Below are positions 7,953-59,654 of a stretch of DNA of 64,000 bases, piece by piece (positions within the stretch are counted from its first letter, which is position 1; the number at the start of each line of letters is the position of its first letter). The DNA is from Patescibacteria group bacterium (lineage in GTDB: Bacteria; Patescibacteriota; Patescibacteriia; Patescibacteriales; UBA12465), in the NCBI GenBank assembly GCA_041651355.1, contig JBAZJK010000001.1, positions 37,883-101,882 of the forward strand, written 5' to 3'. The notes below the pieces were generated by a model, which had not been told where the DNA came from, did no database searches, and was given only the letters and a program-made list of their open reading frames with translations. Both the position numbers and the translations under genes were made by a program.

Positions 7953-10487
7953 ATGGGTCGCCACAAAAAAAAGAAAGAAACCAACCCGCTTGATTACGTA
8001 AATCTACCGAATCTTAGCTTAGACGAACGGGCCAAGAAGAGTATCGGCATAGTCTTTATCTTTGTCTTGGGCTTGATCAGCCTTTTGGGCTTATTTGATC
8101 TATCAGGTAAGACTGGGCAATTTTTATCTAGGTATTTAGCCCTTATTTTCGGCTATGGTAAATGGTTGGTACCCTTGGTTTTTATCTTTTGGGGCATACT
8201 CTTAAGCAAGGGAAAAAAATATCATATCCGTTTTAGTGATTATTTAGGGCTTTTTCTATTATTTATCTCCTACCAGACCATTTTCCATTTTTTCATCAAG
8301 CAGGCTAATTGGGAGTTAGCGGCTGACAGCGGGGCAGGCGGAGGATATATCGGTTTTTATCTATCACAATTTTTCGTTTATTTATTCGGTTTTTGGGGTG
8401 GTCTGATCGTCATCTTAGCTTTATTCCTGATTTCCCTGGTCCTCGTCTTTAACACCTCTCTGTCTAAAATCATCGGTCATGAAAGCTGGTTGGCCAACAT
8501 CTTCAAGCCTTTACTTGGTCTAGCGCAGTCCATGTTCAGCCGTTCAGAAGATGAAGGGGAATCTTTAGACCAAGCGCAGCTAGCTTCTATCCAAAATACC
8601 GCCCTTAATTCCTGGCAGCAAAAAGATTTACAGCCTGAGGCCGGGACGGCCGTTGATAGTAACAGTAAATCAGAAGTAGAGCCTGAACCGAGCCTGGCTC
8701 ATCGTGCCCAGCCCAAAGCCCAGGAAAAGATCGTCTGGCCCAAGAGCAAGGTAAAGATAGATTTGCCTTTAGAGTTACTGAATAATAAATTTTCTAAAGC
8801 GATTGGAGGCGATACGGCTGCTAACGCTCTGAAGATAAAAAAGACTTTAGAGAATTTTGGTATCGCGGTCGAGATGGGAGAAATAAAAGTCGGTCCCACA
8901 GTCACCCAATATGCTTTTAAACCGGCGGAGGGTATCAAATTATCCCACATCACCACTTTAAATAATGATCTTAGCTTGGCTTTAGCAGCTCATCCTTTGC
9001 GGATAGAGGCTCCGATTCCCGGTCAGTCCCTAGTAGGCATAGAGGTGCCTAATAAGGCCAAGGCGATCGTCGGCCTGAGAGAAATCTTAGAAGATAACGT
9101 CTTTAAGAATCGGAAGAATAATCTGATGGTAGCCTTAGGTAAAGATGTCGCTGGCACGGCCTGGATGTATGATATTTCTCGGATGCCCCACCTATTAGTG
9201 GCTGGGGCCACCAATTCCGGCAAATCAGTTTGCTTGAATACAATAATCGTTAGTCTCTTATACCAGAATAATCCGGATGATTTGCGCTTTATCATGGTTG
9301 ACCCTAAGCGCGGCGTCGAGCTTAATTTCTACAATGGCATCCCCCATCTTTTAACTCCGGTCATTACGGAAGTTTCCAAAACCATCAATGCTCTGAAGTG
9401 GTGTTTGAATGAGATGGAGAGGCGCTACGATCTTTTAGGCAAAGCGGCTAAGAAGAATATCCAATCATATAATGCTAGTGCCAGTGAGAAATTACCCTAT
9501 ATAATTTTCATTATCGATGAATTAGCGGATTTTATGATGACGGCTGGCAAAGACTTGGAAGCGGCTATCATCCGTTTAGCTCAGATGTCTCGCGCTATTG
9601 GCATCCATTTAATCCTAGCTACCCAAAGACCGAGCGTTAATGTTATCACTGGTTTGATCAAGGCGAATATCCCGACTCGGATTGCTTTTGCCGTCGCTTC
9701 AGCGGTTGATTCTAAGACTATCTTAGACGCTAGCGGAGCTGAGAAACTCTTGGGGCAGGGAGACATGCTCTTTAGCTGTTCAGAATTTGCCAAGCCGAAG
9801 CGGATCCAGGGCGCTTTCTTAAGTGAAGGTGAAATCGTCGAGGTGGTGAATTACATAAAAGAAAAGAGCGGTCCAGCGGAATATTTGGAAGGCGTGACTG
9901 ATCGGCAGAAAGTAGCTGGAGTCGCCGGCGTCGGCTTAGATGGGATCCACGGCGATGAAGATGAGCTGCTTTTGGAAGCGAAGTCTATAATCTTGAAGGC
10001 AGGAAAAGCTTCAACCTCTCTACTGCAAAGACGTCTGAGCATCGGCTATGGTCGGGCGGCTAAGATTCTGGATATGTTAGAAGAAGCTGGAGTCATCGGA
10101 CCGGCCAACGGCTCTAAGCCTAGAGAAATATTGATCAGTGGCTCTGATTTTGTGAGCGCCACGCCTTTACATCATCGATCAGAGACGGATGCCCCAGACA
10201 GCTATCTAGATGAGGACGAGGGCGATGATGGAACCTTAGCTTTTAGCGGCTCAGATGAAGAGGCGGAAGATATAGAAGAGGCCGAAGAGGAATTAGAGTT
10301 AGATTCGCAAGAATTAGATGAAGTAGTGGAGGATGAAGATGAAATTTTAGAGGATATTAAGGAAGATGAGCCCCAAATTGAAGCAGAAGAGCCGCTAGTA
10401 ACGCCCAAAGCACCAAAAATTGAGAAACATGCGAAAAATCTAGATCCCAAAGATGATGATGATGAGGGGATGTACTTTGCTCGGTAG
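7953..10487 (+). CDS. ftsK: DNA translocase FtsK/SpoIIIE with an unusual acidic C-terminal extension
   Basis: The protein has N-terminal TM helices, Walker A GATNSGKS, Walker B FIIDELAD, LILATQRPS, and a gamma winged-helix region (LLQRRLSIGYGRAAKILDMLEEAG). About 115 extra residues rich in D/E follow the gamma domain. Confidence 0.9.
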   Translation: MGRHKKKKETNPLDYVNLPNLSLDERAKKSIGIVFIFVLGLISLLGLFDLSGKTGQFLSRYLALIFGYGKWLVPLVFIFWGILLSKGKKYHIRFSDYLGLFLLFISYQTIFHFFIKQANWELAADSGAGGGYIGFYLSQFFVYLFGFWGGLIVILALFLISLVLVFNTSLSKIIGHESWLANIFKPLLGLAQSMFSRSEDEGESLDQAQLASIQNTALNSWQQKDLQPEAGTAVDSNSKSEVEPEPSLAHRAQPKAQEKIVWPKSKVKIDLPLELLNNKFSKAIGGDTAANALKIKKTLENFGIAVEMGEIKVGPTVTQYAFKPAEGIKLSHITTLNNDLSLALAAHPLRIEAPIPGQSLVGIEVPNKAKAIVGLREILEDNVFKNRKNNLMVALGKDVAGTAWMYDISRMPHLLVAGATNSGKSVCLNTIIVSLLYQNNPDDLRFIMVDPKRGVELNFYNGIPHLLTPVITEVSKTINALKWCLNEMERRYDLLGKAAKKNIQSYNASASEKLPYIIFIIDELADFMMTAGKDLEAAIIRLAQMSRAIGIHLILATQRPSVNVITGLIKANIPTRIAFAVASAVDSKTILDASGAEKLLGQGDMLFSCSEFAKPKRIQGAFLSEGEIVEVVNYIKEKSGPAEYLEGVTDRQKVAGVAGVGLDGIHGDEDELLLEAKSIILKAGKASTSLLQRRLSIGYGRAAKILDMLEEAGVIGPANGSKPREILISGSDFVSATPLHHRSETDAPDSYLDEDEGDDGTLAFSGSDEEAEDIEEAEEELELDSQELDEVVEDEDEILEDIKEDEPQIEAEEPLVTPKAPKIEKHAKNLDPKDDDDEGMYFAR

Positions 10488-10520
10488 ATTTAATTTAATA
10501 TTAGCTATAAATTACTTAAA

Positions 10521-10546
10521 ATCACTGTTGTCGTCAGTGATTTTTA
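10521..10546 (+). terminator. Rho-independent terminator after ftsK
   Basis: Stem atcactg / cagtgat with a 7-nt loop, followed by a T-run. Confidence 0.5.
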
Positions 10547-10553
10547 GTTGATA

Positions 10554-10582
10554 TTGACAAAATTATTAAAATGTAGTATTAT
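10554..10582 (+). promoter_or_regulatory. Sigma70-like promoter for the 10669 gene
   Basis: TTGACA (10554-10559), a 17-nt spacer, then TATTAT (10577-10582). The same TTGACAA...TATTAT architecture occurs at 14190. Confidence 0.4.
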
Positions 10583-10668
10583 ATAAGCATATTTATGGCT
10601 AATATTGTAGCCTTAAATGTTTCTTTGACAATTAAATCATTAATAATAAAAACCAAAAACAGTAAACC

Positions 10669-12675
10669 ATGAAAAATCTTGTAATTGTATTATTTACTTT
10701 GTTGATTTCAGTCAATTTTGGCTTCGGTCAAGTGAATGTCCAGTTCTCTCAAAATAACCAGTTTGAGGCCTGGAACGATTCGGTATTTAACAGCGATGGG
10801 TATTATTGCAATACTAACCTGTTAGCTTACCATGATTTCTCCCTCGCCAATGGCGATAGTATCACTAAGTGGGTGTGGATCTTTGAAGGTGCCACTAATT
10901 ATGACACGTTGGAAATGACCCCAAACAATTATCAGATGCATATCTGGGTGTATTATCCTAATATCCCGGGTAGCTACCAAACCACTTTAACGGTTTATGC
11001 ATTTAATTCCGCTAACGTGGAATATTTTTCTTCAGTGACTGTAACGGTTCATATCGGGCTTGCTAGTATATTTGGTGGCGACTATTATGAAGTTACTCCT
11101 GATGACTCTGTTACTCTTAGTTCCTATTCTTCATCTGGCCCCGGTCATTTTATCTGGTCTAAAGATGGAGTATTCATTCAGGAAAGCTTCAATTCTAACA
11201 GTAGCTACTTGACGGTCAACGAGGTTGGGGAATACATGGTAACCTATATTAACGATCAATCGGGTTGTGAAACTTTCGATTTTAATTATGTTGATTGGGT
11301 TTGGCCTGGGTCAGTTTGCGCCATGTTTGGCACTGACGACAGCCTATCTCTTGGCGGCGGATATTTCTGCAACCAAGCCTCTATCACCTTTTATGACTTG
11401 TCGAGCGTTTACTCGACCGCCCAACTCTATCATTGGACTTGGCGGGTTAAAACAGGCGATGGCAATACGGTTTTACAAGAGATTGTTTTCAACCAGGCTA
11501 ATTATCAGCCTTCGATTACGATCCAGTTCGCTGACAGCACAGCCTACTACCGCGTAGAGTTAGCTGTATCGAGTTACTCTCCTGGTACCTCAACGCTTAA
11601 CGTCGGCTTACACTTAGGATTCTCTGACGTATCCGCTAGCCCTGATGTTACTATCGCCCCTGGCGATTCCGTAACTTTATCTGCCTATACCAATTATGGA
11701 CCGGGGAATTTTCTCTGGTACAAGGATGGTTTTTTAGGTTTTACCAGCAACGCCAATGTTAGCTATTTATCGGTAGCTGATTCGGGAATGTATCTGGTAA
11801 ATTACCATGGTAACGGTTGCGAGTCTTGGGATTCGGTGATGGTTAAGTGGGCCGATCCTATGCCAGCTCCGGTAGCTAGCTTCTCGGTTAATAGCCCAAA
11901 CTATGCTCCGGTGGCCTATTTCTGTAATACGATCCAGGTCTACTGTTACAACCATTCTATTTGCAGTAATATTACCAAATCAGTCTGGGTAATTACTCAG
12001 CAAAACCAGACCAGCTCCATCACTTTAACCGGCCCCAATGCTCTTGATTACATAACCGTGAATCTGATTCCTGGGAATGACCATGTCGACTTGGTTAAAC
12101 TGTTCGTCTATAGTTTTGACGGTAATTATAATGTCGAATTGGTTGATTCAATTGAAACTCAACTAGTAATGGGCTTCTCTGATATCGTAGTATCAGATCC
12201 GGTCGTTGAACTGACAGCCGGTTCAACGGCTAGCCTGCATGCTTATACCACCTTCGGACCGGGGACTTTCATCTGGACAAATCAGAGTGGAGATACCCTG
12301 GCGGTTACAAGTAACGCCATTCAAAGCAACCTGCTTGTTTCCGACACCGGAGTTTATTGGGTAAAGTTCGTTAATGTTTTGGGAAATTGCGAAAATATCG
12401 CTTCTATAAAAGTGATTTATGCCATTACCACCAATTTATCCGAACTGACCCACGCTAACACCCAGGTTTATCCCAACCCGACATTTGAGAGATTCACAGT
12501 GGATAATTTCTCTGGGAAGGTAGAGATTTTTTCTGCCACTGGACAGCTGATTTTCAGCCAGACAGTGTCTGAAAAAACAAGTATCTTATGCCAGGACTGG
12601 AAACCTGGTTTCTATTTCATCCGTCTCAAAACTCTTTCCGGTGAGACCGAAACGGTCAAACTGGTAAAGCAGTAA
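10669..12675 (+). CDS. Secreted repeat protein: signal peptide, 3x (PKD-like + Ig-like) modules, and a T9SS type-A (Por) C-terminal sorting domain
   Basis: The N-terminal signal is MKNLVIVLFTLLISVNFGFGQ. Three repeats have the form S(V/A)TLSxYxxxGPGxF(I/L)WxKDG...S(Y/N)L(T/S/L)V...G(E/M/V)Y(M/L/W)V...G(C)E. The C-terminus is VYPNPTFERFTV...GKVEIFSATGQLIF...KPGFYFIRLKTLSGETETVKLVKQ. Confidence 0.8.
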   Translation: MKNLVIVLFTLLISVNFGFGQVNVQFSQNNQFEAWNDSVFNSDGYYCNTNLLAYHDFSLANGDSITKWVWIFEGATNYDTLEMTPNNYQMHIWVYYPNIPGSYQTTLTVYAFNSANVEYFSSVTVTVHIGLASIFGGDYYEVTPDDSVTLSSYSSSGPGHFIWSKDGVFIQESFNSNSSYLTVNEVGEYMVTYINDQSGCETFDFNYVDWVWPGSVCAMFGTDDSLSLGGGYFCNQASITFYDLSSVYSTAQLYHWTWRVKTGDGNTVLQEIVFNQANYQPSITIQFADSTAYYRVELAVSSYSPGTSTLNVGLHLGFSDVSASPDVTIAPGDSVTLSAYTNYGPGNFLWYKDGFLGFTSNANVSYLSVADSGMYLVNYHGNGCESWDSVMVKWADPMPAPVASFSVNSPNYAPVAYFCNTIQVYCYNHSICSNITKSVWVITQQNQTSSITLTGPNALDYITVNLIPGNDHVDLVKLFVYSFDGNYNVELVDSIETQLVMGFSDIVVSDPVVELTAGSTASLHAYTTFGPGTFIWTNQSGDTLAVTSNAIQSNLLVSDTGVYWVKFVNVLGNCENIASIKVIYAITTNLSELTHANTQVYPNPTFERFTVDNFSGKVEIFSATGQLIFSQTVSEKTSILCQDWKPGFYFIRLKTLSGETETVKLVKQ

Positions 12676-12698
12676 ATAGCACATTGTAAAATGATCAG

Positions 12699-12732
12699 GA
12701 CCCTCGGACTCAAGTTTCGAGGGTCTTTTTTT
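12699..12732 (+). terminator. Rho-independent terminator
   Basis: Stem GACCCTCG (12699-12706) / CGAGGGTC (12718-12725), followed by T7. Confidence 0.7.
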
Positions 12733-12762
12733 ATTATCAGGAATCACTTATAATGGATTTAT

Positions 12763-14181
12763 ATGTTGGCACAGATCAAGAAAATAATTCCGCTCCGCTT
12801 ATTTAAAATTCTCCAACCGCCCTATCATTACCTGATGAATCTAGCGGCGGCTTTAACGTATAGATTTCCTTCCCAGAAATTGATCGTTATCGGCATTACC
12901 GGCACGACTGGCAAAACTTCTACGGTTTATCTGGCTGCTAAAGCCTTAGAAGCCAATGGATATCGGGTTGGCTATAGTTCGACCGCGCAGTTCAGTGACG
13001 GCCGGAAAGAGTGGTTGAATGACAAGAAGATGACAATGGTCGGGCGCTTTTTTACGCAAAGACTATTACGGGAGATGTTAAAAAATTCTTGCCAATACGC
13101 GATTATCGAAACGACCTCGGAAGGCATTAAGCAGTTCCGCCACCGTTTCATTAATTACGACATCCTGTTATTTACTGGCTTATACCCTGAGCACATCGAG
13201 TCCCACGGCAGCTTTGAAAAATATAAAGCAGCTAAGAGTGACTTGTTCAAGCATCTAAAGAATTGCCGGACTAAATATGTTAATGACAAGAAGCTTGTCT
13301 GCCGTCCGAAGAGCGAGCTAAAAAAGCTCGACCTGGAACGTGTTAAAAAAACCATTATCGTTAATGGTGATGATGACCACGCTGCCCATTTCTTGTCTTT
13401 TTGGAGCGAAAATAAGTTTATCTATAGTTCGAGCTTGGCTGATCGGAGCGAAGCGGCAAAATATTTCCGTTTAGATCCCCTAGCTAAAGATTGGCATTTT
13501 TTAGGCTATCATAGCGTGAGGGCCAGTGCTGATGGTACTGAATGCATTATTGACGGGCAGGGCGTCCAACTTTCTCTGCTTGGTGATTTTAACGCTCAGA
13601 ATGCCACCGCTGCCTACGCGGTTACTGTTAGCCAGAATCTAAAGGCTGATTTGAGTCTGCGAGCCCTGGAGAGCGTTAAAAGCCTAGCAGGGAAATTAGA
13701 GAAGATTGATCTCGGTCAAAATTTTTCCGTGATTGTCGATTACGCCTTTGAACCTAGAGCTTTAGAAAAAGTTTATCAGGCTATTTATCTGTTAGAACCC
13801 CAACGCATCATCCATGTTCTAGGTTCAACCGGAGGCGGGCGCGATGTCGCGCGGAGGCCGGAACTGGGCAGGATAGCCGGAGAAAGGGCAGATTGCGTGA
13901 TCGTCACTAACGAGGACCCCTATGACGATAATCCACAATTAATCATTGAGCAGGTAGCTCTAGGCGCGGAAAGAGCTGGGAAAGAACTGGATAAGGATCT
14001 TTTTAAGGTTCTAGATCGCCGTTTGGCCATCAGGCAGGCCCTAAGCCTGGCTCAAGAGGGTGATTTAGTCTTAATCAGCGGCAAAGGCGCCGAACAATAT
14101 ATATGTGTCGCTGGCGGCGAGAAAGTCCCTTGGGATGACCGGAGGGTAGCCAGGGAAGAGTTGACAGCCCTTTGTGGATAA
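12763..14181 (+). CDS. murE: Mur ligase family protein, MurE-like (UDP-MurNAc-L-Ala-D-Glu:diamino-acid ligase)
   Basis: P-loop GITGTTGKTST, then ETTSEGIKQFRH...LFTGLYPEHIESHG, and a C-terminal TNEDPYDDNP (compare MurE DNPR). The N-terminal domain is short. It is not adjacent to other mur genes. Confidence 0.65.
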   Translation: MLAQIKKIIPLRLFKILQPPYHYLMNLAAALTYRFPSQKLIVIGITGTTGKTSTVYLAAKALEANGYRVGYSSTAQFSDGRKEWLNDKKMTMVGRFFTQRLLREMLKNSCQYAIIETTSEGIKQFRHRFINYDILLFTGLYPEHIESHGSFEKYKAAKSDLFKHLKNCRTKYVNDKKLVCRPKSELKKLDLERVKKTIIVNGDDDHAAHFLSFWSENKFIYSSSLADRSEAAKYFRLDPLAKDWHFLGYHSVRASADGTECIIDGQGVQLSLLGDFNAQNATAAYAVTVSQNLKADLSLRALESVKSLAGKLEKIDLGQNFSVIVDYAFEPRALEKVYQAIYLLEPQRIIHVLGSTGGGRDVARRPELGRIAGERADCVIVTNEDPYDDNPQLIIEQVALGAERAGKELDKDLFKVLDRRLAIRQALSLAQEGDLVLISGKGAEQYICVAGGEKVPWDDRRVAREELTALCG

Positions 14182-14189
14182 AATGTGTG

Positions 14190-14218
14190 TTGACAAGCCT
14201 CAAATAATATAATATTAT
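14190..14218 (+). promoter_or_regulatory. Sigma70-like promoter in the long leader upstream of rpoB
   Basis: TTGACA (14190-14195), a 17-nt spacer, then TATTAT (14213-14218), about 260 nt upstream of the rpoB ATG. Confidence 0.35.
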
Positions 14219-14477
14219 TACTTAGACAACTATTATTAAGTAAAAAATGGATAAAGCGGTGATAAAAGCTTAATTTTTTTGTATTATAGCTATTCCGTTT
14301 TTTTTGTTATATTAGTGAAATATTCTTTTTTAAATCTTTATTTTAAAAAAGTGGGCGCCAACAACTCAAATTAACTTAATATCTTTATTTTAACTCAACC
14401 ATCAGGATTGAGATTTTTTGTTTATATAAATTTGTCGGTCTAAAAATTTTAGTCTTGCCAATTTTTAATCTAAATTT

Positions 14478-17400
14478 ATGTCCAAGCTCAAACATGAAGG
14501 CCATAAAACCGAGGCTCGCCGTTTCTTCAAGGATTTTCAAGAAGTCACGGAAATGCCGGAGCTAATCGAGATTCAGAAAGATTCTTATCATTGGTTTTTA
14601 AAGGAAGGCTTGATGGAATTATTCGATGAGATTAATCCGGTGACCGATTTCATCGGTCGTGACTTAGAATTATATTTTGAAGACTATTATCTGGATGAGC
14701 CTAAATTTACCGAAGTGGAAAGCCGGGAAAAAAATATTACCTATGAAGCGCCCCTTAGGGTCAAGACTCGTCTTTTGAATAAGAAGACCGGAGTCGCTAA
14801 TAGCCAGGAGGTTTATTTGGGAGATTTTCCCTTGATGACCGATAAGGGTACTTTCGTTATCAACGGTATCGAGAGAGTGGTTGTCTCACAGTTGATCCGT
14901 TCCGCCGGTGTCATGTTCACGGCTGAATTTGTGAAAGGCAAGAAATGCTATGGTGCTAAGATTATCCCTAACCGCGGCGCCTGGTTAGAAATAGAAACAG
15001 ATTCAAACAAGGTGATTTGGGTAAGGATAGACCGTAAGCGTAAAGTCGCTGTTACTTCATTATTACGCGCTTTTGGTTATGCTGATGATGAGTCGATTCG
15101 CGCTCTATTCAAGGATGTCGATCTAGTAAAAAATAAGGATGAAGAGACATATATCGATGCGACGATTGCTAAAGATGCGGCTAAGGATGAAGCTGAAGGA
15201 TTGCAGGAGGTCTATAAGCGTATTCGTCCAGGAGATTTAGCCTCAGTTGAAAACGCCCGCCAATTGATCTATTCCATGTTTTTCCGCTTTGACCGCTATG
15301 ACTTTGGCCGGGTCGGCCGCTATAAGCTGAACCGTCGTTTCGGTTTGGATTTAGCCAACAAGAAAGAGAACCGCGTTTTACGTAAAGAAGATCTAGTTTT
15401 GATCGTTAAAGAGGTTATCCGTTTAAATATTACTAAAGAACCGGAGGATGATATTGATCATTTAGGTAATCGTCGTGTCCGGGCGATCGGCGGTCTAATC
15501 CAGAATCGTTTCCGCGTCGGTTTAGCCAGAATGGAGCGCATCATCAAGGATCGCATGAGTACTAGCGATATCGCTACCTTATCTCCCGCTAAGTTAATCA
15601 ATGCTCGTCCGGTTATCGGAGTGGTCAAAGAGTTTTTCATGTCTTCCCAATTATCGCAGTTCATGGATCAGACTAACCCTTTAGCCGAGCTCGAACATAA
15701 GCGTCGTCTATCAGCTATGGGTCCAGGCGGCTTAGCCAGGGAAAGGGCTGGTTTCGATGTTCGCGATGTGCATTCTACCCATTATGGCCGTATCTGTCCG
15801 ATCGCTACTCCTGAAGGCCCGAATATCGGCTTAGTCGGCCACTTGGCCAGTTTTGCCCGTTTAAATAGTTATGGATTTTTAGAAGCTCCATACCGCAAAG
15901 TCTTGCACGAGAAAAATGGCAGCCGTCTGAGCGATGAGGTTGTCTATCTCGATGCTTTTGAAGAAGAAAAATATATCACGGCCGATGCTACCATCCCAAC
16001 CGATGAGAATGGCCGCTTTTTAGTGAATAAATATGAGGTTAGAAAATATGGTCAACCTTCAGTCGATGAGGTGAGAAAAATAGATTTAGTCGGCGTAGCC
16101 GCTAATCAGATTATTTCTATCGCCACTAGCTTGATTCCTTTCATGGAACATAACGACGGCCAGCGTTCTTTAATGGGCACGAACATGCAACGTCAGGCTG
16201 TGCCTTTAATCAAAAGCGAGGCTCCGATTGTCGGCACAGGTGTTGAGGCTAGAGCGGCTCGTGATAGTGGCCATGTCGTTATTTCCAAAGAAGATGGTGA
16301 AGTTACTAGGGCGGATTCGGCGGTAATCGAAGTTAGTAACAAGAAGGGACAAACCACTAAATATGTTTTGAATAAATTTTTACGTTCCAACTCTTCCACC
16401 TGTATCAATCAACATCCGATTGTAGAATGCGGCGATAAGGTCAAGGCCGGCCAGGTTTTAAGCGACGGCCCTGCGATTGATAATGGGGAATTGTCTCTGG
16501 GCCGTAATGTTTTAGTTGCTTTCATGACCTGGGAAGGCTTTAACTATGAGGATGCGGTGATTATTTCAGAAAGATTAGTTAAAGAGGATATCTATTCCTC
16601 TATCCATATTGAAAATTATTCGATCGATGTTCGTGATACTAAACTTGGTCCCGAAGTTATCACTAACGATATTCCTAATATCAGTGAGGAAAAACTTAAG
16701 AATTTAGATGAAGACGGTATTATTCGTATCGGTGCTGAAGTGTCATCTGGCGATATCTTGGTTGGAAAGATCACTCCTAAAGGTGAAACCACTTTGTCGG
16801 CTGAAGAGAAATTGTTGCGCGCCATCTTTGGTGAAAAAGCCAAGGATGTTCGTGATTCTTCTTTATATCTAGAACACGGCGAACATGGTAAAGTAGTCGA
16901 TGTAAAAATCTTCTCTCGGGAGGAAGGCGACAAGTTGTCGGCTGGTGTCTTGCAATCCATCCAAGTCTCGGTAGCTAATTTGCGCAAGATCCAAGTGGGC
17001 GATAAGATGTCAGGCCGTCACGGTAACAAGGGTGTTATTTCTAAAGTCGTACCAGCCGAGGATATGCCTTATATGGCTGACGGTACGCCAATCGATATTA
17101 TTTTATCACCTTTAGGTATTATTTCCCGTATGAACCTGGGCCAGTTGTTAGAAACTCATTTAGGTTTTGCGGCCAAAAAGCTTGGCTATCGCGTAGCTAC
17201 TCCAGCCTTAAACGGTATCAGTGAAGATCAGATCAAAGAGGAGCTTAAGAAAGCCGGCTTACCTGAAGATGGTAAAGTCACCTTATATAATGGTAAGACT
17301 GGTGAAGCCTACGATCATAAGATTACGGTTGGTTATAAGTATGTTTTGAAACTGAACCATATGGTCGAAGATAAGATCCATCAGCGCTCTATCGGTCCTT

Positions 17401-17804
17401 ATTCCTTGATTACCCAACAGCCTTTAGGCGGTAAGGCCCAATTCGGAGGTCAGCGTTTCGGAGAAATGGAAGTGTGGGCCCTTGAAGGTTATGGCGCCGC
17501 TCATACTCTGCAGGAGATCTTAACCATTAAGTCTGATGATGTTACTGGCCGTAGTAAAGCCTATGAGTCCATCATTAAGGGTGAAACTATCGAAAAACTC
17601 AATGTCCCGGAATCATTCAATGTCTTAATCAGGGAGCTTAAGGGTTTATGCTTGGATGTTGAATTGCTAGGGGGAAGTCCGATGCCCGAGCCGAGCCGGG
17701 AAGATCTTGAGGCCGATCTCCCAAGAAAGAAAGATGATAAATATGATTATGACAAGCCGGAGATAATCGCGGCTGAAGATAAATCTAGCGATAGCATGGA
17801 TTAA
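14478..17804 (+). CDS. rpoB: DNA-directed RNA polymerase beta subunit
   Basis: Canonical RpoB motifs are present throughout, for example [21 protein letters not shown] and [20 protein letters not shown]. Confidence 0.97.
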
Positions 17805-17831
17805 ATTTAATTGATAATTAAACTCATATAT

Positions 17832-20800
17832 ATGCTTAATCCTATAAAAACCAGCGATTTCGACGCTATCCGGCTCAAATTAGCTTCGCCTGATAATATC
17901 TTGGCTTGGAGCCGGGGCGAAGTTTTACGCCCGGAAACGATTAATTATCGCACTCAAAAACCGGAAAAGGACGGTCTTTTCTGCGAAAAGATTTTCGGAC
18001 CGGTTAAAGACTGGGAGTGTGCTTGCGGTAAATACAAGAAGATTCGTTATAAAGGAATTATCTGTGACAAATGCGGCGTCGAAGTTACTCGGAGCGTCGT
18101 CCGTCGTGAGCGGATGGGGCACATTACCCTGCAGATCCCTTGCTCTCATATTTGGTTTCTACGCGGCTTATCTTCTAAGATCGGGCTTTTGTTAAATCTA
18201 GGAATCCAATCTCTGGAAAAGGTTATTTATTTTGCCAGCTTTATAGTTACCGAGGTGGATGAGAATCTCAAAGAAGCAACCATTGAGCAAATCAAACAGG
18301 AATATAAGTCTAAGCGCAAAAGCATTGAAAATGAATTTAATAACGCTAGCCGTCCTAAAGATAAGGAATTGTCAGCTGGCGATCTCAAGGATTTAACCAG
18401 AGTTAAAGAAGAAAGATTGAAACAGTTAGATGAGGATTTCGCGGCCGCCCAGAAAGAGTTGAAAGAGTTGAAGCCGCTTTTAATCTTATCCGAGAATCAG
18501 TATCAGACCCTTAGTTTGAAATTCGGCCACATCTTTGAAGCAGGTATCGGTGCTGAGGCTATCAGGTATTTATTATCTAAGATAGATTTAGCTAAAAGCA
18601 TCAAGAAAGTAGAAGAAAAGCTGGTAGATGCCATAGAATCAAAGAAGGACAAGCTGACTAAGCGCTTGAAGCTTTTAAAGAGTTTTAATAATAATAACAT
18701 TCGTCCAGAATGGATGATTTTAAATATCTTGCCCGTCGTTCCGCCTGACCTTAGGCCGATGGTAGCTCTAGACGGTGGCCGTTTTGCGGCTTCCGATCTT
18801 AATGATCTTTATCGCCGGGTAATCAACCGTAACAATCGTTTAAAGCAGTTGATAGAACTTAACGCTCCTGAGGTTATTTGCCGCAACGAAAAAAGAATGT
18901 TGCAGGAGGCCGTCGATGCTTTGATTGATAATTCGGCTCGGCATACTAAAACCGTGACCGCTTCTACCGGACAGAAACGCCAGCTAAAATCATTAGCCGA
19001 TGCTTTGAAAGGCAAACAGGGCCGTTTCCGCCAGAATTTATTAGGTAAGCGTGTGGATTATTCTGGACGTTCGGTCATCGTCGTTAATCCGAAATTGAAT
19101 TTAGATCAATGCGGCCTCCCCAAGATAATGGCACTAGAATTATTCAAGCCGTTTATCATTAGTCAGTTGATTAAGCGCGAGATAGTCCATAATGTCCGCA
19201 GTGCTTCCCGCTATATCGAAGCTGGACATGACGAAGTTTTCGATATTTTAGAAGAAACGGTTAAGGAATCTTATGTCCTTTTAAACCGTGCCCCGACTTT
19301 GCATCGTTTAGGTATCCAAGCCTTTAAACCTATCTTAATCGAAGGTAAGGCGATCCAGATCCATCCTTTAGTTTGTACCGCTTTTAATGCCGACTTCGAT
19401 GGCGACCAGATGGCTGTCCATGTCCCTTTGACGATTGAAGCGCGAGCCGAGGCTAAAGATTTAATGTTGTCTTCCCATAATCTATTGAAACCGGCTACCG
19501 GCGATCCAGTGGTAGCGCCAAACCAGGATATCGTTTGGGGTACTTATTATATGACTCTGGAAGACAAGGTTTCAGCTCTTAAGTCTGACAAGGAATTGAA
19601 GAGTTTTTATAGTGAAGATGAAGCCTTATTAGCCTACGAAAGCAACTTTATCGATTTGCATGAGACGATTCGTATTAAGTTCAATCAGGGCGACTTGATT
19701 AGAACTACGGTCGGGCGCATAATTTTTAATTTAATCCTTCCGGAGAAATTACGCTTCATCAATGACGTGGTCGGTAAAGGGAAATTAAAGGATTTGATTA
19801 AAGAGTGCCTACATGTCTATGGCGAGGAGTCGACGGTGCACTTTATTGATAACCTGAAGAATAAAAGTTTTGCCTTCATTACCAAGTCTGGTTTATCTTG
19901 GGGTTTTGGCGACCTGCCTGATCTTAAAGAAAAAGACCTGTTGATCGAGGCGGCTAACCAGAAAGTAGACCTTATCCAAGAACAGTATGAAGAAGGCTTG
20001 CTCACTGAAAGCGAACGCTATGCTAAGGTCATTGAAGAATGGACTAATACTAAGGATAAGATCGCTGATATCTGCAAGCAAGGCCTAAATGATGTTTTGC
20101 CCGTGTTCTCCATGATTGATTCTGGTGCGCGCGGTTCTTGGGCTCAGCCGGTTCAGATTCTAGGTATGAAGGGTTTGGTGACTTCACCTTCCGGCGCGAT
20201 TATCGAATTGCCAGTCAAGGGTAACTTTAAACGCGGTTTCGGTGTGTTGGAATATTTCATTTCGACTCACGGTGTGCGTAAAGGTTTATCTGATACGGCT
20301 TTAAGAACGGCTAATGCCGGTTATCTAACTCGCCGTTTAGTCGATGTTTCTCAAGATGTAATCGTGTCTAGCGAGGATTGTGGCGATAGTGAGGGCTTAT
20401 TATTCAATCGTCAGGAAGCTGAAAAGAATGGTGACGATTTCTTCAAGAAGATTACCGGACGTTATTTGGCTCAGGATCTCTTGGATTCAAAAGGGAAATT
20501 ATTAGCTAAAGCCGGGGATCTTTTAACCGAATCAGTCGTCAAGACTTTTAAAGGTAAAGATTTTTCCGATATCATCATTCGTTCGGTTTTGAGCTGCAAG
20601 CTCCATAAGGGTGTTTGTGCTAAATGTTATGGCTACGACTTAGCTTATAATAAAACCGTGAAGATGGGGGCGACCGTTGGTATTATCGCGGCCCAGTCGA
20701 TCGGAGAACCAGGAACTCAGTTGACGATGAGAACTTTCCATACGGGCGGCGTTGCCGGACAAGATGATATTACCCAGGGTTTGCCGAGAGTTGAAGAAAT

Positions 20801-21776
20801 TTTTGAAGCCCGTCCACCGAAAAAGAAAGCCTTGATGTCGGATGTCGCTGGTAAGGTTAAAGTGGAGTTTGCCCAGAAGATAATTAAAGGTGAGGACGGA
20901 CAGGATATCTTAGTCAACAATCCGCAAGCCAAAGTGTTGAGTATTTATTTTAAAGGCAAGGATTCGGATAAATATTATTTTTCCGAGAAGATTAATGAAG
21001 TTAAGCTGGCTGGCGGGATTACCGGTAAGACCAAGGCGAAGATCGAAGTCAAAGTCTTGGTGCAAGACGGTGATAAGGTTGCCAAAGGTTCGGATCTGTT
21101 CAAGGTCGGAAGCGAATTGGTTAAAGCTAAGGCTGCCGGCGTCGTCGAAGTTAATGATAAGTTCATCAAGATTTCCAAAGAAGTCGATAAGGTTAAGGAG
21201 TTTTCCATTCTCAAAGGTACGATGTTAATGGTTAAGGATGGCGATACAATTGAAAAGGGCCAGCAATTAACTGAAGGCAGCTTAGATTTACGCGAATTGT
21301 ATAAGCTTAAGGGCCGCCTAGAAACCCAGAAATATATTATCAGGGAAATCCAGTACGTTTATTCTTCCCAGGGCCAACCTTTGAATGATAAGCACGTAGA
21401 GATCATTGCTCGTCAGATGTTTTCTCGCTATCTTGTTAAAGATCCGGGCGATTCCGGATTATTGCCAGGTGAGACCGTTGAAGAAGAAGTTTTAAGCGTC
21501 GCCGACAAGAGTGCTGCGACCAAAGTCAAGGCCGAAAGATTACTCTTAGGCATTACTAAGGCTTCTTTAACAACGGATAGCTTCCTATCAGCGGCTTCTT
21601 TCCAAGAGACTTCCCGAGTTTTAATCGAGGCAGCCGTTAATGGCAAAATCGATTATTTGGAAGGACTTAAGGAAAACGTCATCATCGGCTGTCTGATTCC
21701 GGCTGGCACCGGCTATAAAGGTAAGCAGCTACGCGATGATTACGGCCAAGCTAACCCTGAATTATCCGAGAAATAA
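17832..21776 (+). CDS. rpoC: DNA-directed RNA polymerase beta' subunit
   Basis: Zn-finger CACGKYKKIRYKGIICDKCGVEV, catalytic NADFDGDQMAVH, and the trigger-loop region TFHTGGVAG. The track ORF opens at TTG 17811; ATG at 17832 (MLNPIKT...) is the more likely start. Confidence 0.97.
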   Translation: MLNPIKTSDFDAIRLKLASPDNILAWSRGEVLRPETINYRTQKPEKDGLFCEKIFGPVKDWECACGKYKKIRYKGIICDKCGVEVTRSVVRRERMGHITLQIPCSHIWFLRGLSSKIGLLLNLGIQSLEKVIYFASFIVTEVDENLKEATIEQIKQEYKSKRKSIENEFNNASRPKDKELSAGDLKDLTRVKEERLKQLDEDFAAAQKELKELKPLLILSENQYQTLSLKFGHIFEAGIGAEAIRYLLSKIDLAKSIKKVEEKLVDAIESKKDKLTKRLKLLKSFNNNNIRPEWMILNILPVVPPDLRPMVALDGGRFAASDLNDLYRRVINRNNRLKQLIELNAPEVICRNEKRMLQEAVDALIDNSARHTKTVTASTGQKRQLKSLADALKGKQGRFRQNLLGKRVDYSGRSVIVVNPKLNLDQCGLPKIMALELFKPFIISQLIKREIVHNVRSASRYIEAGHDEVFDILEETVKESYVLLNRAPTLHRLGIQAFKPILIEGKAIQIHPLVCTAFNADFDGDQMAVHVPLTIEARAEAKDLMLSSHNLLKPATGDPVVAPNQDIVWGTYYMTLEDKVSALKSDKELKSFYSEDEALLAYESNFIDLHETIRIKFNQGDLIRTTVGRIIFNLILPEKLRFINDVVGKGKLKDLIKECLHVYGEESTVHFIDNLKNKSFAFITKSGLSWGFGDLPDLKEKDLLIEAANQKVDLIQEQYEEGLLTESERYAKVIEEWTNTKDKIADICKQGLNDVLPVFSMIDSGARGSWAQPVQILGMKGLVTSPSGAIIELPVKGNFKRGFGVLEYFISTHGVRKGLSDTALRTANAGYLTRRLVDVSQDVIVSSEDCGDSEGLLFNRQEAEKNGDDFFKKITGRYLAQDLLDSKGKLLAKAGDLLTESVVKTFKGKDFSDIIIRSVLSCKLHKGVCAKCYGYDLAYNKTVKMGATVGIIAAQSIGEPGTQLTMRTFHTGGVAGQDDITQGLPRVEEIFEARPPKKKALMSDVAGKVKVEFAQKIIKGEDGQDILVNNPQAKVLSIYFKGKDSDKYYFSEKINEVKLAGGITGKTKAKIEVKVLVQDGDKVAKGSDLFKVGSELVKAKAAGVVEVNDKFIKISKEVDKVKEFSILKGTMLMVKDGDTIEKGQQLTEGSLDLRELYKLKGRLETQKYIIREIQYVYSSQGQPLNDKHVEIIARQMFSRYLVKDPGDSGLLPGETVEEEVLSVADKSAATKVKAERLLLGITKASLTTDSFLSAASFQETSRVLIEAAVNGKIDYLEGLKENVIIGCLIPAGTGYKGKQLRDDYGQANPELSEK

Positions 21777-25759: not shown

Positions 25760-26485
25760 ATGTATCAAGGCCAAAAAATCATCGTGGTTCTGCCGGCTTA
25801 TAATGCCGCCAAGACGCTGACCCAGACGGTTAATGATCTGCCGTCTTTAGTGGACCAGGTTATCCTAGTTGATGATTTTAGCCATGATGAAACCGTTAAG
25901 ATTGCTCAAGACTTAGGCTTAAGTATTGTTCGCCATGCTAATAATAAAGGCTATGGAGCTAACCAGAAAAGTTGTTACCAGGCGGCGCTGGAGCAGGGTG
26001 GTGATATTATTGTCATGATTCATCCCGATTATCAGTATGACCCTAAATTAGTTAAATATTTTGCTGAGTTTATCGGTGATGGTTATTTTGATGTGATGCT
26101 CGGCACTAGGATCCGGTCGCGCCGTGAAGCCCTGGCTGGCGGCATGCCTTTATATAAATATTTATTTAATCGTTTCTTGACCATTATTGAAAATTTAGTC
26201 AGCGGTTTAAACCTTTCAGAATGGCACACCGGCATGCGGGCCTACAAGAGAGAAGTTTTAGAAAAGATTGCTTGGTCGAAAAATTCCAACGATTTCGTAT
26301 TTGACTCCCAGATACTTTTTCAGATCGCTGCTCAACATTATCGGATCGGGGAAATCCCGGTACCGGTTAGATATTTTCCCGAAGCTTCATCGATTAATTT
26401 TAGACGTAGTTGCCGCTACGGCCTAGGCACCCTGGCGGTTGTATTGAGTTACTTGATTAATAAAGACCGGTGGCGCGGTCATTAG
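25760..26485 (+). CDS. GT2 glycosyltransferase, polyprenol-phosphate sugar synthase-like (DPM1/GtrB type)
   Basis: KIIVVLPAYNAAKTL, VILVDDFSHDET, NKGYGANQK and IHPDYQYDP. The track ORF opens at TTG 25736, inside the previous gene; ATG 25760 sits 2 nt after that gene's stop. Confidence 0.8.
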   Translation: MYQGQKIIVVLPAYNAAKTLTQTVNDLPSLVDQVILVDDFSHDETVKIAQDLGLSIVRHANNKGYGANQKSCYQAALEQGGDIIVMIHPDYQYDPKLVKYFAEFIGDGYFDVMLGTRIRSRREALAGGMPLYKYLFNRFLTIIENLVSGLNLSEWHTGMRAYKREVLEKIAWSKNSNDFVFDSQILFQIAAQHYRIGEIPVPVRYFPEASSINFRRSCRYGLGTLAVVLSYLINKDRWRGH

Positions 26486-26490
26486 CATAT

Positions 26491-28194: not shown

Positions 28195-28215
28195 AAGTTT
28201 GGAGGTCCCATATTT

Positions 28216-29859: not shown

Positions 29860-29939
29860 TTGACCAAAATAGTTAAATAATTTAAGATAAAGGTAGGCCT
29901 TAAGCGATATTTAAATGTCGCTTTATTTATATTAAAAAC

Positions 29940-36153: not shown

Positions 36154-36174
36154 ATATCTCTGTCCCCTAGTTTT

Positions 36175-45169: not shown

Positions 45170-45184
45170 AATCTTTATAAAAAC

Positions 45185-55852: not shown

Positions 55853-55864
55853 TTTCAAAACCAA

Positions 55865-58426: not shown

Positions 58427-58436
58427 TTGATTATTT

Positions 58437-59630: not shown

Positions 59631-59654
59631 TTAGCAGCTTAATATCATTTAGAA

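What the first reader, a model, noticed from the sequence alone, without database searches (positions are those of the whole stretch)
10554..12732. T9SS (Por) C-terminal sorting domain on a protein in a genome that otherwise looks CPR-like
The last ~75 aa (VYPNPTFERFTVDNFSGKVEIFSATGQLIFSQTV...KPGFYFIRLKTLSGETETVKLVKQ) fit the type-A T9SS CTD consensus very well. As far as I know, that tag is used by Bacteroidota/FCB bacteria, which have an outer membrane and PorU/PorV. Nothing else in this window suggests such an envelope. The gene is a self-contained cassette between ftsK and a murE-like gene, with its own promoter-like element, terminator and AT-rich upstream spacer. Three explanations are possible: inter-phylum gene transfer, repurposing of the CTD as a beta-sandwich anchor, or chimeric assembly.
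Basis: partly seen in the sequence, partly recalled or inferred. Interest (0 to 1): 0.65.

Follow-up and report, generated by a model that had tools for sequence, protein, structure and literature searches.

The report
T9SS-type sorting domain in CPR adhesin
A secreted, adhesin-like protein of a tiny Patescibacteria (CPR) bacterium ends in a genuine Bacteroidota-style type IX secretion "sorting" domain that is inherited vertically and kept under purifying selection, so in this lineage, which is thought to lack that secretion system, the domain probably has another job.

Summary
ORF 10669-12675 (668 aa) ends in a type-A T9SS C-terminal domain (CTD): TIGR04183 43 bits (cutoff 23), PF18962 42 bits (cutoff 27). 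Its seven-strand model matches solved T9SS CTDs, and the functionally important lysine four residues from the C-terminus is invariant.

The protein has a signal peptide, three PKD-like + Ig-like modules, then the CTD. The genome is Patescibacteria (NCBI label, monoderm-type T4SS genes), and no outer-membrane or T9SS gene lies in the 64 kb.

Chimeric assembly and recent transfer are rejected. Orthologs occupy the same ftsK-X-murE-rpoB slot in seven further loci from at least six other datasets. Codon usage is native, and promoter and terminator are conserved.

The gene diverges faster than any neighbour (27-61% against 62-98% identity) and gains and loses modules, but it always keeps the CTD. 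Against the closest strain dN/dS is 0.15 (CTD region 0.19, p=0.006).

Best reading: a Sec-exported surface or extracellular adhesin whose CTD has been repurposed as a binding or anchoring module. The domain set probably came from FCB bacteria long ago.

Absence of T9SS from the whole genome and the CTD's role remain untested. The family is rare, and PGAP already names the protein. Interest is moderate.

The parts
10520..10547 (+). ftsK terminator-like hairpin (AATCACTG-loop-CAGTGATT followed by a T-run) at the start of the spacer
   Evidence: Seen in the alignment of six orthologous spacers. The stem sequence differs between loci but still pairs. The consensus scan did not list it, so this is an inference from the alignment.
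10554..10582 (+). Promoter-like element TTGACA-17-TATTAT
   Evidence: 11 of 12 consensus matches. The -35 hexamer is invariant and the -10 is TAT(A/T)AT in all six orthologous loci.
10589..10620 (+). AT-rich inverted repeat in the 5' UTR (ATATTTAT...TAAATGT)
   Evidence: Eight-pair stem conserved in five of six loci, with almost no covariation; RNAalifold energy only -1.1 kcal/mol. Function unknown; weak evidence.
10669..10731 (+). Signal peptide, aa 1-21 (MKNLVIVLFTLLISVNFGFG|Q)
   Evidence: Strongest N-terminal hydrophobic 12-mer among the window's ORFs bar one; helix 2-16 in the model. There is no lipobox cysteine. Q follows the predicted cleavage site in every family member. No signal-peptide predictor was available, so the cleavage site is inferred.
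10732..11304 (+). Module 1: PKD-like beta-sandwich (aa 22-131) + Ig-like domain (aa 132-212)
   Evidence: All-beta domains with pLDDT about 80-90. Internal repeats: modA1-modA2 E 2e-8, Ig1-Ig2 E 8e-21.
11305..11856 (+). Module 2: PKD-like (aa 213-318, GGGYFCNQ motif) + Ig-like (aa 319-396); the core shared by all relatives
   Evidence: Most conserved body segment, 63% mean pairwise identity. It is the segment matched by the short relatives. The module profile hits the PKD domain of 2c26 at E 8e-4. The Ig profile hits GhpA at E 1e-18 and CEACAM Ig domains.
11857..12432 (+). Module 3: PKD-like (aa 397-508) + Ig-like (aa 509-588); missing in two orthologs
   Evidence: Deleted in P0003 (480 aa) and P0006 (553 aa). 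Sub-threshold Ig_7 hit of 23.2 bits at aa 513-582.
12433..12465 (+). Flexible linker, aa 589-599
   Evidence: pLDDT below 50 at residues 587-596; lowest conservation, 25%.
12466..12672 (+). Type-A T9SS C-terminal domain (aa 600-668), including invariant K664 (nt 12658-12660)
   Evidence: Invariant residues in the family are P602-N603-P604, G625-Q626, W644, P646-G647, Y649-F650, G658 and K664-L665. For the linker+CTD region dN/dS is 0.19, Fisher p 0.006.
12697..12737 (+). Intrinsic terminator (12-bp stem, T-run)
   Evidence: The hairpin is conserved in five loci, with four pairs kept through changes on both sides, and is followed by an invariant TATAAT for murE.

Best explanation
The gene encodes a fast-evolving adhesin-like protein of a Falkowbacteria-related Patescibacteria lineage, exported by the Sec pathway to the cell surface or the medium. 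After a cleavable signal peptide it is a flexible string of three PKD-like + Ig-like module pairs, and it ends in a domain that belongs to the T9SS type-A CTD family.

The gene is a resident of this clade, inherited vertically at a fixed site between ftsK and murE, with its own conserved promoter and terminator. The domain set (Ig_7-type Ig domains, PKD-like modules, CTD, Q after the signal peptide) most likely came from an FCB/Bacteroidota source before the clade diversified.

These organisms are thought to have no outer membrane and no T9SS, so the CTD cannot act here as an outer-membrane export signal. It is retained under purifying selection as a functional terminal beta-sandwich. Most likely it binds or anchors: either it holds the adhesin on the CPR cell surface, or it is itself a contact point with a partner cell. 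The variable PKD/Ig modules would provide reach and specificity.

Shown here: domain identity and fold, the architecture, the CPR context of the locus, synteny and vertical descent, native composition, rapid divergence with module gain and loss, and purifying selection on the CTD.

Inferred: Sec export and the cleavage site, absence of T9SS and an outer membrane in the rest of the genome, the ancient foreign origin, and the anchoring or binding role.
For: - Domain identity: TIGR04183 43.3 bits and PF18962 41.9 bits, both above their cutoffs. Profile hits to solved T9SS CTDs. The seven-strand model matches the NucA, RemA, RemZ, mirolase and RgpB CTDs.
- Key lysine: K664 sits four residues from the C-terminus, like the near-invariant functional lysine RemZ K1110 of 1114 (PMC10994853), and is invariant in the family.
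- Architecture: full-length model with pLDDT 80.9, seven beta domains and flexible linkers; internal repeats; PKD and Ig profile hits.
- CPR context: NCBI organism labels; T4SS_pilin x2, PrgI and a VirB4-like fragment. [quoted passage not shown]
- No outer-membrane or T9SS family in any of 38 window ORFs. By contrast, a 21-kb FCB-type control locus shows a TonB-dependent receptor, OmpA, CHU_C and two CTD proteins.
- Vertical descent: the same slot is occupied in L003/L004/L016, L005, L006/L007, L008, L009 and L022. Target identity is 27-61%, against 62-98% for the neighbours and 91-98% for RpoB.
- Native composition and conserved promoter and terminator.
- Selection: dN/dS is 0.152 for the whole gene and 0.19 for the CTD region, p 0.006. 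The CTD is present in every length variant from 455 to 679 aa while body modules come and go.
Against: - Only 64 kb of an 881-kb genome was examined, so absence of T9SS and outer-membrane genes is an expectation from the phylum, not a result for this genome.
- No experiment or expression data exist.
- Purifying selection on the CTD could reflect only the need for a stably folded terminal domain, not a specific binding role.
- No anchoring partner, cell-wall-binding motif, transmembrane segment or sortase signal was found, so the protein might simply be released.
- The foreign origin is circumstantial. Named nearest CTDs are Bacteroidota but only 30-39% identical, and a 70-residue domain cannot give a robust tree.
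- Retention of the lysine that matters for T9SS transport is not predicted by a purely structural role.
Confidence: 0.6

Rival explanations
1. Host-directed mimicry. The CPR cell is an episymbiont of a Bacteroidota/FCB host, and its CTD-tagged adhesin engages the host's surface-exposed T9SS attachment machinery (PorV shuttle, PorU sortase, PorZ), tethering the symbiont to the host or even becoming covalently attached.
For: - The CTD keeps every hallmark of a T9SS-competent type-A CTD, including the near-invariant lysine. PMC10994853 singles out this lysine as the one conserved residue not explained by the fold.
- The CTD is under purifying selection in a lineage not expected to have a T9SS.
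- The variable body evolves fast and recombines, as expected of a host-contact protein.
- The best solved match of its Ig modules is GhpA, a T9SS-secreted prey-catching hook.
Against: - The host is unknown and no co-occurrence data were examined.
- T9SS substrates are normally recognised from the periplasmic side, and no precedent for capture of an exogenous CTD was found in the papers searched.
- The lysine may also be structurally needed.
- The resemblance to GhpA is generic for strings of Ig domains.
Confidence: 0.07
2. Genuine T9SS cargo. This organism, or its clade, has an outer membrane and a complete or minimal T9SS elsewhere in the genome, and the CTD works as usual.
For: - The domain passes every sequence and fold test of a type-A CTD.
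- Only 7% of the genome was inspected.
Against: - No outer-membrane or T9SS family occurs in 38 ORFs over 64 kb.
- The T4SS genes present are of the monoderm type, and Patescibacteria are reported to lack an outer membrane (PMC12102498).
- T9SS is described as confined to the FCB superphylum or Bacteroidota (PMC11205867; abstracts of PMC10202324 and PMC11611037).
- An 881-kb genome has little room for the roughly 20 proteins of a T9SS (that count is from the abstract of PMC8754138).
Confidence: 0.04
3. Recent horizontal transfer of a Bacteroidota gene cassette into this one genome.
For: - The gene is a self-contained unit with its own promoter and terminator.
- Its tetranucleotide profile is the most deviant 2-kb tile of the window.
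- Named nearest CTDs are from Bacteroidota.
Against: - GC 0.432 and GC3 0.463 against a window mean of 0.457; synonymous codon deviation ranks 25th of 38.
- The tetranucleotide deviation is reproduced by re-encoding the protein with window codon usage: 0.577 +/- 0.046 against 0.569 observed.
- Orthologs sit in the same slot in lineages down to 71% FtsK identity.
- The body has no detectable close homolog outside this group among 1.84 billion representatives.
Confidence: 0.02
4. Assembly chimera or binning contamination that joins a Bacteroidota fragment to a CPR contig.
For: It is the simplest explanation a priori for a phylum-inappropriate domain in a MAG.
Against: - The junctions are identical in the NCBI (881 kb), ENA MEGAHIT (372 kb) and Logan contigs.
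- Seven further loci from at least six other datasets have the same neighbours.
- The spacers on both sides are conserved.
Confidence: 0.01
5. Inert relic. The CTD is a leftover of an old acquisition with no role beyond being a stable terminal domain, and the protein is simply released.
For: - PMC10994853 says the conserved type-A motifs specify the fold rather than contacts, so conservation may only reflect foldability.
- No anchoring partner was identified.
Against: - The CTD is kept in every ortholog and in the short subfamily, while whole PKD/Ig modules are lost, gained or swapped.
- dN is significantly below dS in the CTD region.
- A dispensable 70-residue tail would be expected to be lost in some of these reduced genomes.
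Confidence: 0.2

Closest known systems
Type-A CTD cargo proteins of the Bacteroidota T9SS (e.g. F. johnsoniae RemA/RemZ/NucA, P. gingivalis RgpB, T. forsythia mirolase)
   Same: - N-terminal Sec signal peptide, passenger domains, and a C-terminal seven-strand beta-sandwich of the TIGR04183/PF18962 family.
- The same motifs (PNP, G-x-Y, K-L-V-K) and the lysine four residues from the end.
- Structural superposition with TM about 0.63-0.76.
   Different: - The host genome is a Patescibacteria, reported to be monoderm, with no T9SS gene seen (window only).
- The CTD is only 30-39% identical to the nearest outside CTDs.
- T9SS-dependent export cannot be assumed.
GhpA grappling-hook protein of Aureispira (PDB 9flp and others)
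   Same: - A bead-on-a-string of Ig-like domains of the same subtype.
- It is the best solved match both by fold for the whole chain (E 7e-21) and by sequence profile for the Ig module (E 1e-18).
- It is a surface protein used for contact with another cell and is linked to the T9SS (10.1101/2025.08.19.671072, citing Lien et al. 2024).
   Different: - GhpA has 5,898 residues and forms heptamers on an outer-membrane basal body; the window protein has 668 residues.
- TM-scores for the whole chains are low (0.15-0.21), so the likeness is at the level of domain type, not assembly.
Fibrillar adhesin-like proteins with Por_Secre_tail or CHU_C anchors (Monzon et al. 2021, PMC8286594); Ig_7 'CHU_C-associated' repeat proteins of Cytophagia
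   Same: - Stalk-like tandem Ig/PKD domains plus a C-terminal anchor domain.
- Relatives found by the exhaustive search carry Ig_7, PKD and Por_Secre_tail together.
   Different: - The Ig_7 score is below the Pfam cutoff in the window protein (23.2 against 27.3).
- That paper found Por_Secre_tail anchors 'mostly in Bacteroidetes'.
- No separate adhesive head domain is evident here.
Short CTD proteins of 203-293 aa (P0051, P0052, P0065, P0142, P0155, P0198, P0199)
   Same: - Same layout in miniature: signal peptide ending in A-Q, one PKD-like module with the GGG(Y/W)FCNQ motif, one Ig-like domain (absent in P0155), and Por_Secre_tail.
   Different: - Different genomic slot (Pterin_4a ... rplT-rpmI-infC), and variably present between close relatives.
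- Their CTDs form a separate cluster.
- Their taxonomy is not established, only CPR-compatible.

Membership tests
T9SS type-A C-terminal sorting domain (TIGR04183 / PF18962), as a domain family | HMM score above the curated cutoff, covering the whole model | tested here: met
   TIGR04183 43.3 bits against 23, model positions 1-72 of 72. PF18962 41.9 bits against 27.
T9SS type-A C-terminal sorting domain (TIGR04183 / PF18962), as a domain family | Located at the extreme C-terminus of a protein that has an N-terminal Sec signal peptide | tested here: met
   The domain spans aa 600-668 of 668. The N-terminus has a K-containing n-region and a hydrophobic h-region, and forms helix 2-16 in the model. 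The signal peptide was judged by inspection, not by a predictor.
T9SS type-A C-terminal sorting domain (TIGR04183 / PF18962), as a domain family | Seven-stranded Ig-like beta-sandwich fold superposable on solved CTDs | tested here: met
   CTD-only model with pLDDT 87.8 and seven strands. Foldseek hits: 8gl6_D TM 0.72/0.76 at 2.0 A rmsd, plus 8glk_D, 8gl8_D, 8qb1, 7pq4 and 5ag8.
T9SS type-A C-terminal sorting domain (TIGR04183 / PF18962), as a domain family | Near-invariant, functionally important lysine close to the C-terminus | tested here: met
   K664 of 668 has the same offset as RemZ K1110 of 1114 (PMC10994853). It aligns to the K of ...GKIIKQ in 8glj_D and is invariant in the six-member alignment. 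A lysine is also kept in the short subfamily.
T9SS substrate (functional class) | Same genome encodes the T9SS machinery (SprA/Sov, PorV, PorU, PorK/L/M/N or GldK-N, etc.) and an outer membrane | tested here: inconclusive
   None was found in any of 38 ORFs of the 64-kb window (Pfam; NCBIfam). The remaining 93% or so of the 881-kb genome could not be read. The literature describes Patescibacteria as lacking an outer membrane.
T9SS substrate (functional class) | CTD-dependent export across an outer membrane, with CTD removal or attachment by PorU | not testable with these tools
   This needs genetics or proteomics.
PKD domain (PF00801 / PF18911) | HMM score above the Pfam gathering cutoff | tested here: not met
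   No PKD family appears at E<=1 for the window protein. The module profile hits the PKD domain of 2c26 at E 8e-4. Only the relative P0052 passes the cutoff (24.6 against 23.5). The module is therefore called 'PKD-like' only.
Ig_7 (PF19081, CHU_C-associated Ig-like domain) | HMM score above the Pfam gathering cutoff | tested here: not met
   23.2 bits against a cutoff of 27.3, at aa 513-582. More distant relatives with the same Ig type pass clearly: P0045 172.6 bits, P0066 68.4 bits.
Candidate Phyla Radiation / Patescibacteria genome | Phylogenetic placement or source label, with a CPR-typical gene set | tested here: met
   NCBI labels are 'Patescibacteria group bacterium' and 'Candidatus Falkowbacteria bacterium'. 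The window has two T4SS_pilin PF18895 proteins, PrgI and a VirB4-like fragment. The identical protein's NCBI contig is a single 881-kb sequence. No marker-gene phylogeny was run here.

The most novel reading that the evidence does not exclude
The CTD is not a leftover. It is the working end of a host-attachment device: an episymbiotic Patescibacteria secretes an Ig/PKD adhesin whose authentic type-A CTD is recognised by the surface-exposed T9SS shuttle and attachment complex (PorV, PorU, PorZ) of a Bacteroidota host. That would dock the symbiont, or even couple it covalently, to the host's outer membrane. It would be the first case of one bacterium exploiting another's secretion-signal recognition from the outside, and the first molecular clue to the host range of this CPR clade.
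Probability: 0.07. Interest if true: 0.85.

Novelty: new variant of a known kind. Interest (0 to 1): 0.45.

Why it matters
T9SS and its CTD signal are treated as a hallmark of Bacteroidota and the FCB group. This is a bona fide type-A CTD that has been stably inherited and selectively maintained in a Patescibacteria clade, which is expected to have neither an outer membrane nor a T9SS.

That has three consequences:
- The CTD fold can have a function independent of the translocon. This bears on what the conserved lysine and motifs really do.
- A TIGR04183 hit cannot by itself be used to infer a T9SS or to flag contamination in MAGs.
- It supplies a concrete, testable candidate for a cell-contact protein in a CPR lineage with no known host, with a specific hypothesis (binding to FCB-type surfaces) that a simple binding or heterologous-secretion assay could test.

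The weight is limited: the family is rare and narrow, the protein is already auto-annotated in GenBank, and no function is shown.

Tried and rejected
- CTD-only profile search of the 5.8-billion-protein database. It returned only proteins shorter than 150 aa and missed the family's own members, so it could not show whether CTDs are widespread in Patescibacteria. It showed only that the named nearest CTDs are Bacteroidota at 30-39% identity.
- Taxonomy of the short subfamily by exact-sequence cluster look-ups of neighbouring housekeeping proteins. No organism names were returned. The only hints are a CPR-compatible context and the missing uL1 after L11 in L020.
The long-family alignment found only two loci.
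- The Foldseek afdb50 library was unavailable.
- Whole-chain Foldseek against the PDB gives generic Ig-string matches with low TM, so it informs on domain type only.
- The tetranucleotide outlier looked like evidence of foreign origin but disappeared under the amino-acid-composition control.
- The 5'-UTR inverted repeat was considered as a structured RNA. There is almost no covariation and negligible energy, and Rfam found nothing in the window.
- The sub-threshold TIGR04183 hit inside the 524-aa membrane protein at 21877-23451 is not supported by profile comparison (probability 2%).
- Literature searches combining T9SS or Por_Secre_tail with Patescibacteria, CPR or DPANN terms found no paper that addresses CTDs in CPR.
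- The Litorilinea grappling-hook preprint is not a CTD precedent.
Full report
**1. What is there**

The finding's coordinates (10554-12732) run from a promoter-like site to the end of a terminator hairpin around one ORF, window 10669..12675 on the + strand, 668 aa.

The C-terminal 69 residues match the T9SS type-A sorting domain. TIGR04183 gives 43.3 bits (cutoff 23, E 2.8e-11, model 1-72 of 72). Pfam PF18962 gives 41.9 bits (cutoff 27). A profile of the family's CTDs finds solved T9SS CTDs by sequence: 8glj_D at 2.8e-7, then 8glk_D, mirolase 8qb1, gingipain 5hfs/7pq4, Hbp35 5y1a and RemZ 8gl8. A CTD-only AlphaFold model (pLDDT 87.8, pTM 0.75, seven strands) has as its best structural matches the NucA, RemA, RemZ, mirolase and RgpB CTDs, with TM 0.63-0.76 and 2.0 A rmsd for RemA.

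**2. Anatomy of the protein**

The N-terminus (MKNLVIVLFTLLISVNFGFG|QVNV) is a typical Sec signal peptide with no lipobox. The full-length model (mean pLDDT 80.9) is a string of seven all-beta domains with low-confidence linkers at residues 211-213 and 587-596.

Self-comparison shows three tandem bipartite modules. Each has a ~105-aa domain (22-131, 213-318, 397-508; modA1 against modA2 E 2e-8) followed by an ~80-aa Ig-like domain (132-212, 319-396, 509-588; Ig1 against Ig2 E 8e-21). After the third module come a linker and the CTD.

The first domain type is PKD-like. Pfam PKD models do not hit the window protein. A profile of the module reaches the PKD domain of 2c26 at E 8e-4, and relatives score 20-25 bits on PKD. 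The Ig-like domain gives a sub-threshold Ig_7 (CHU_C-associated) hit (23.2 against 27.3 bits). Its profile's best solved match by far is the Aureispira grappling-hook protein GhpA (E 1e-18), followed by CEACAM-type Ig domains. GhpA is also the top whole-chain Foldseek hit, though with low TM.

There is no C-terminal transmembrane segment, LPXTG motif or SLH domain.

**3. What genome this is**

The identical protein is GenBank MFA5162946.1, named by PGAP 'T9SS type A sorting domain-containing protein [Patescibacteria group bacterium]', on an 881,714-bp contig. The 49%-identical MCX6798361.1 is from a Candidatus Falkowbacteria MAG from Lac Pavin.

The window's other 37 large ORFs are housekeeping and CPR-typical genes:
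- YebC, RuvC, glycogen synthase, GH57, FtsK, MurE, RpoB/C, an ADP-forming acyl-CoA synthetase, MurJ, LepA, RecJ, PFOR subunits, a DsbA-like protein, LeuRS, KsgA and AsnRS/AspRS
- two T4SS_pilin (PF18895) proteins, PrgI and a VirB4-like fragment
- several large ORFs without family matches

. No outer-membrane, LPS or T9SS family appears.

[quoted passage not shown] As a contrast, the 21-kb neighbourhood of an unrelated PKD+CTD protein (P0206) shows a SusC-like TonB-dependent receptor, OmpA, a CHU_C protein and two Por_Secre_tail proteins. Only about 7% of the genome was visible to me, so absence of T9SS in this genome is an inference.

**4. Chimera and recent transfer are excluded**

The ftsK-X-murE-rpoB-rpoC arrangement is identical in the NCBI contig, an ENA MEGAHIT contig of 372 kb and a Logan contig. 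These may derive from the same reads.

More importantly, orthologs occupy the same slot in other datasets:
- L022 (ERR7015357), 97% identical
- L005 (SRR29243427)
- L006/L007 (SRR30949872 and SRR30949877)
- L003/L004/L016 (a co-occurring sister lineage, also in JGI Ga0265297)
- L008 (Lac Pavin)
- L009 (SRR28423913)

.

Identity to the window is 27-61% for this protein, against 62-96% for eight neighbouring genes and 91-98% for RpoB.

GC (0.432), GC3 (0.463 against a window mean of 0.457) and synonymous codon usage (rank 25 of 38) are ordinary. The gene's deviant tetranucleotide profile (r 0.57 against 0.87) is reproduced when the same protein is re-encoded with the window's codon preferences (0.577 +/- 0.046), so it only reflects the S/T/N/Y/V-rich, K/R/E-poor composition.

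The upstream spacer has the same order of elements in six loci: an ftsK terminator hairpin, an invariant TTGACA-17-TAT(A/T)AT, and an AT-rich inverted repeat. The downstream hairpin keeps pairing through compensatory changes and is followed by an invariant TATAAT for murE. The 'cassette' is therefore a conserved, resident transcription unit, not a mobile insert.

**5. How it evolves**

The gene is the fastest-diverging in its block, and its modules are gained and lost. P0003 (480 aa) and P0006 (553 aa) lack module 3. P0006 has a different first module plus an extra Ig. P0043 (455 aa) has one PKD-like module and three Ig domains. Every variant keeps the signal peptide, at least one PKD-like module with the GGG(Y/W)FCNQ motif, at least one Ig domain, and the CTD.

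Mean pairwise identity is 53% for the CTD, against 39-45% for the Ig domains and 40-63% for the PKD-like modules. The family's CTDs cluster with each other (46-69%) and are 31-39% identical to everything else, so the CTD has co-evolved with the body.

Against the closest strain (L022), NG86 dN/dS is 0.152 for the gene. The six neighbours give 0.00-0.10. For the linker+CTD region it is 0.19 (5 non-synonymous and 7 synonymous differences; Fisher p 0.006).

Divergence along the gene is mosaic. There is about 1 mismatch per 300 nt at 10196-11395, against 12-20 per 300 nt at 11696-12595, which suggests recombination inside the gene.

**6. Distribution**

The family is rare:
- six proteins in the word-indexed search
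- only 12 hits at E<=1e-30 among 1.84 billion representatives, the rest being CTD-only or Ig-repeat matches
- one of 185,579 GTDB species representatives
- two loci in the JGI metagenome collection

A second, short subfamily (203-293 aa) has the same layout in miniature. It sits in a different slot (Pterin_4a ... rplT-rpmI-infC) and is absent from that slot in a close relative (L020; L20 85% and ATPase 92% identical), so it is an accessory gene. Its contigs show no outer-membrane genes, and L020 lacks uL1 after L11, a trait listed as frequent in CPR (abstract of PMC9297842, seen). Its taxonomy could not be established.

Four literature searches found no paper on the subject.

**7. Mechanism**

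Lauber et al. [quoted passage not shown] The exception is an almost invariant, functionally important lysine near the C-terminus (RemZ K1110 of 1114). The window protein has K664 of 668 at the same offset. It is invariant in the family and aligns to the equivalent K of 8glj_D.

My best reading (confidence about 0.6) is as follows. The protein is a Sec-exported, flexible adhesin-like protein. Its CTD cannot work as an outer-membrane export signal in a cell without a T9SS. It has instead been retained as a functional terminal module, probably for anchoring or binding. The variable, recombining PKD/Ig modules would mediate contact with a partner.

The domain set points to an old acquisition from FCB bacteria, but this is circumstantial:
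- the Ig_7-type Ig domains
- the CTD
- a glutamine after the signal peptide in every member, which resembles the Bacteroidetes Q-rule of PMC5837995

Rivals:
- an inert but fold-constrained relic (0.2)
- mimicry directed at the T9SS attachment complex of a Bacteroidota host (0.07)
- a real T9SS elsewhere in the genome (0.04)
- recent transfer (0.02)
- chimera (0.01)

**8. Comparison with known systems, and verdict**

As a domain, the tail passes every membership test of TIGR04183/PF18962: score, position, fold and lysine. As a T9SS substrate, membership is unproven and unlikely, because the machinery was not seen and is not expected.

It is best filed as a new variant of a known kind: a T9SS-type CTD protein that lives outside the T9SS context. 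GenBank already carries the automatic name, so the annotation itself is not new. What is added here:
- evidence that the gene is native, vertically inherited and fast-evolving in a CPR clade
- evidence that its CTD is selectively maintained
- a set of decisive tests

Interest is moderate (0.45). It is surprising to a T9SS or CPR specialist and readily testable, but it is confined to a rare, narrow family and has no functional data.

Noticed in passing
window 10729-10734 (target), 45185-53626 and 55865-58426; also P0002-P0006, P0043 and the short subfamily: Glutamine sits at +1 of the predicted signal-peptidase site in the target (GFG|Q) and in every relative. It is also there in two of the four other signal-peptide proteins of the window (NVRA|QLVTT, NAWA|QISFG). 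This resembles the Bacteroidetes 'Q-rule', which PMC5837995 describes as Bacteroidetes-specific. The sample is small and no glutaminyl cyclase was sought.
   Followed up: partly
window 10196-12595 compared with L022: Divergence from the closest strain is mosaic. There is about 1 mismatch per 300 nt across the end of ftsK, the spacer and the first ~240 codons of the gene, against 12-20 per 300 nt in the 3' part. This suggests a recent recombination tract ending inside the gene.
   Followed up: partly
window 10589-10620: An AT-rich inverted repeat (ATATTTAT...TAAATGT) lies in the 5' UTR between the conserved promoter and the start codon. It is present in five of six orthologous loci, followed by a conserved TTTCTTTGACAA. 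There is almost no covariation and the predicted stability is very low.
   Followed up: partly
window 21877-23451: A 524-aa predicted membrane protein just downstream of rpoC has no Pfam family. It gives a sub-threshold internal TIGR04183 hit (17 bits against a cutoff of 23, aa 250-319; motif GVYRIEVKT...TKKII). Profile comparison with the family CTD is not significant (probability 2%).
   Followed up: partly
L010 3536-4384, L014 4840-5721, L011, L012/L013, L017; absent in L020 7073-7118: A miniature version of the protein (signal peptide ending in A-Q, one PKD-like module, one Ig domain, CTD; 203-293 aa) lies next to rplT-rpmI-infC in unclassified, CPR-compatible contigs. It is missing from the same slot in a close relative, so it is an accessory gene.
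   Followed up: partly
window 34124-37287 (-) and 55205-62259 (+): Two T4SS_pilin (PF18895) proteins, one fused to an NlpC/P60 domain, flank a PFOR TPP-binding subunit gene (35281-36153). At the window's end, PrgI and a VirB4-like N-terminal fragment follow four ORFs of 215-853 aa with no family match. This is probably the monoderm-type T4SS cluster described for Patescibacteria (PMC12102498).
   Followed up: no
window 44531-53626: A 2,813-aa secreted giant protein (weak DUF4141 N-terminal hit and weak CBM_4_9) is preceded by a 212-aa TSP3-repeat protein with faint similarity to gliding/cohesion proteins CglD and MtsD. It is another candidate surface or contact protein.
   Followed up: no
window 12763-21776; L020 14060-15806: In the window, rpoB-rpoC is preceded by murE rather than by rplJ-rplL. 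In L020, secE-nusG-rplK is followed by a dCMP deaminase instead of rplA. Absence of uL1 is reported as frequent in CPR (abstract of PMC9297842).
   Followed up: no
window 26001-30000: There is a strongly negative AT skew (-0.21 to -0.23) over four consecutive 1-kb windows. It coincides with membrane-protein genes: the end of a GT2 gene, a TPR membrane protein and MurJ. It is probably compositional, from T-rich hydrophobic codons.
   Followed up: no
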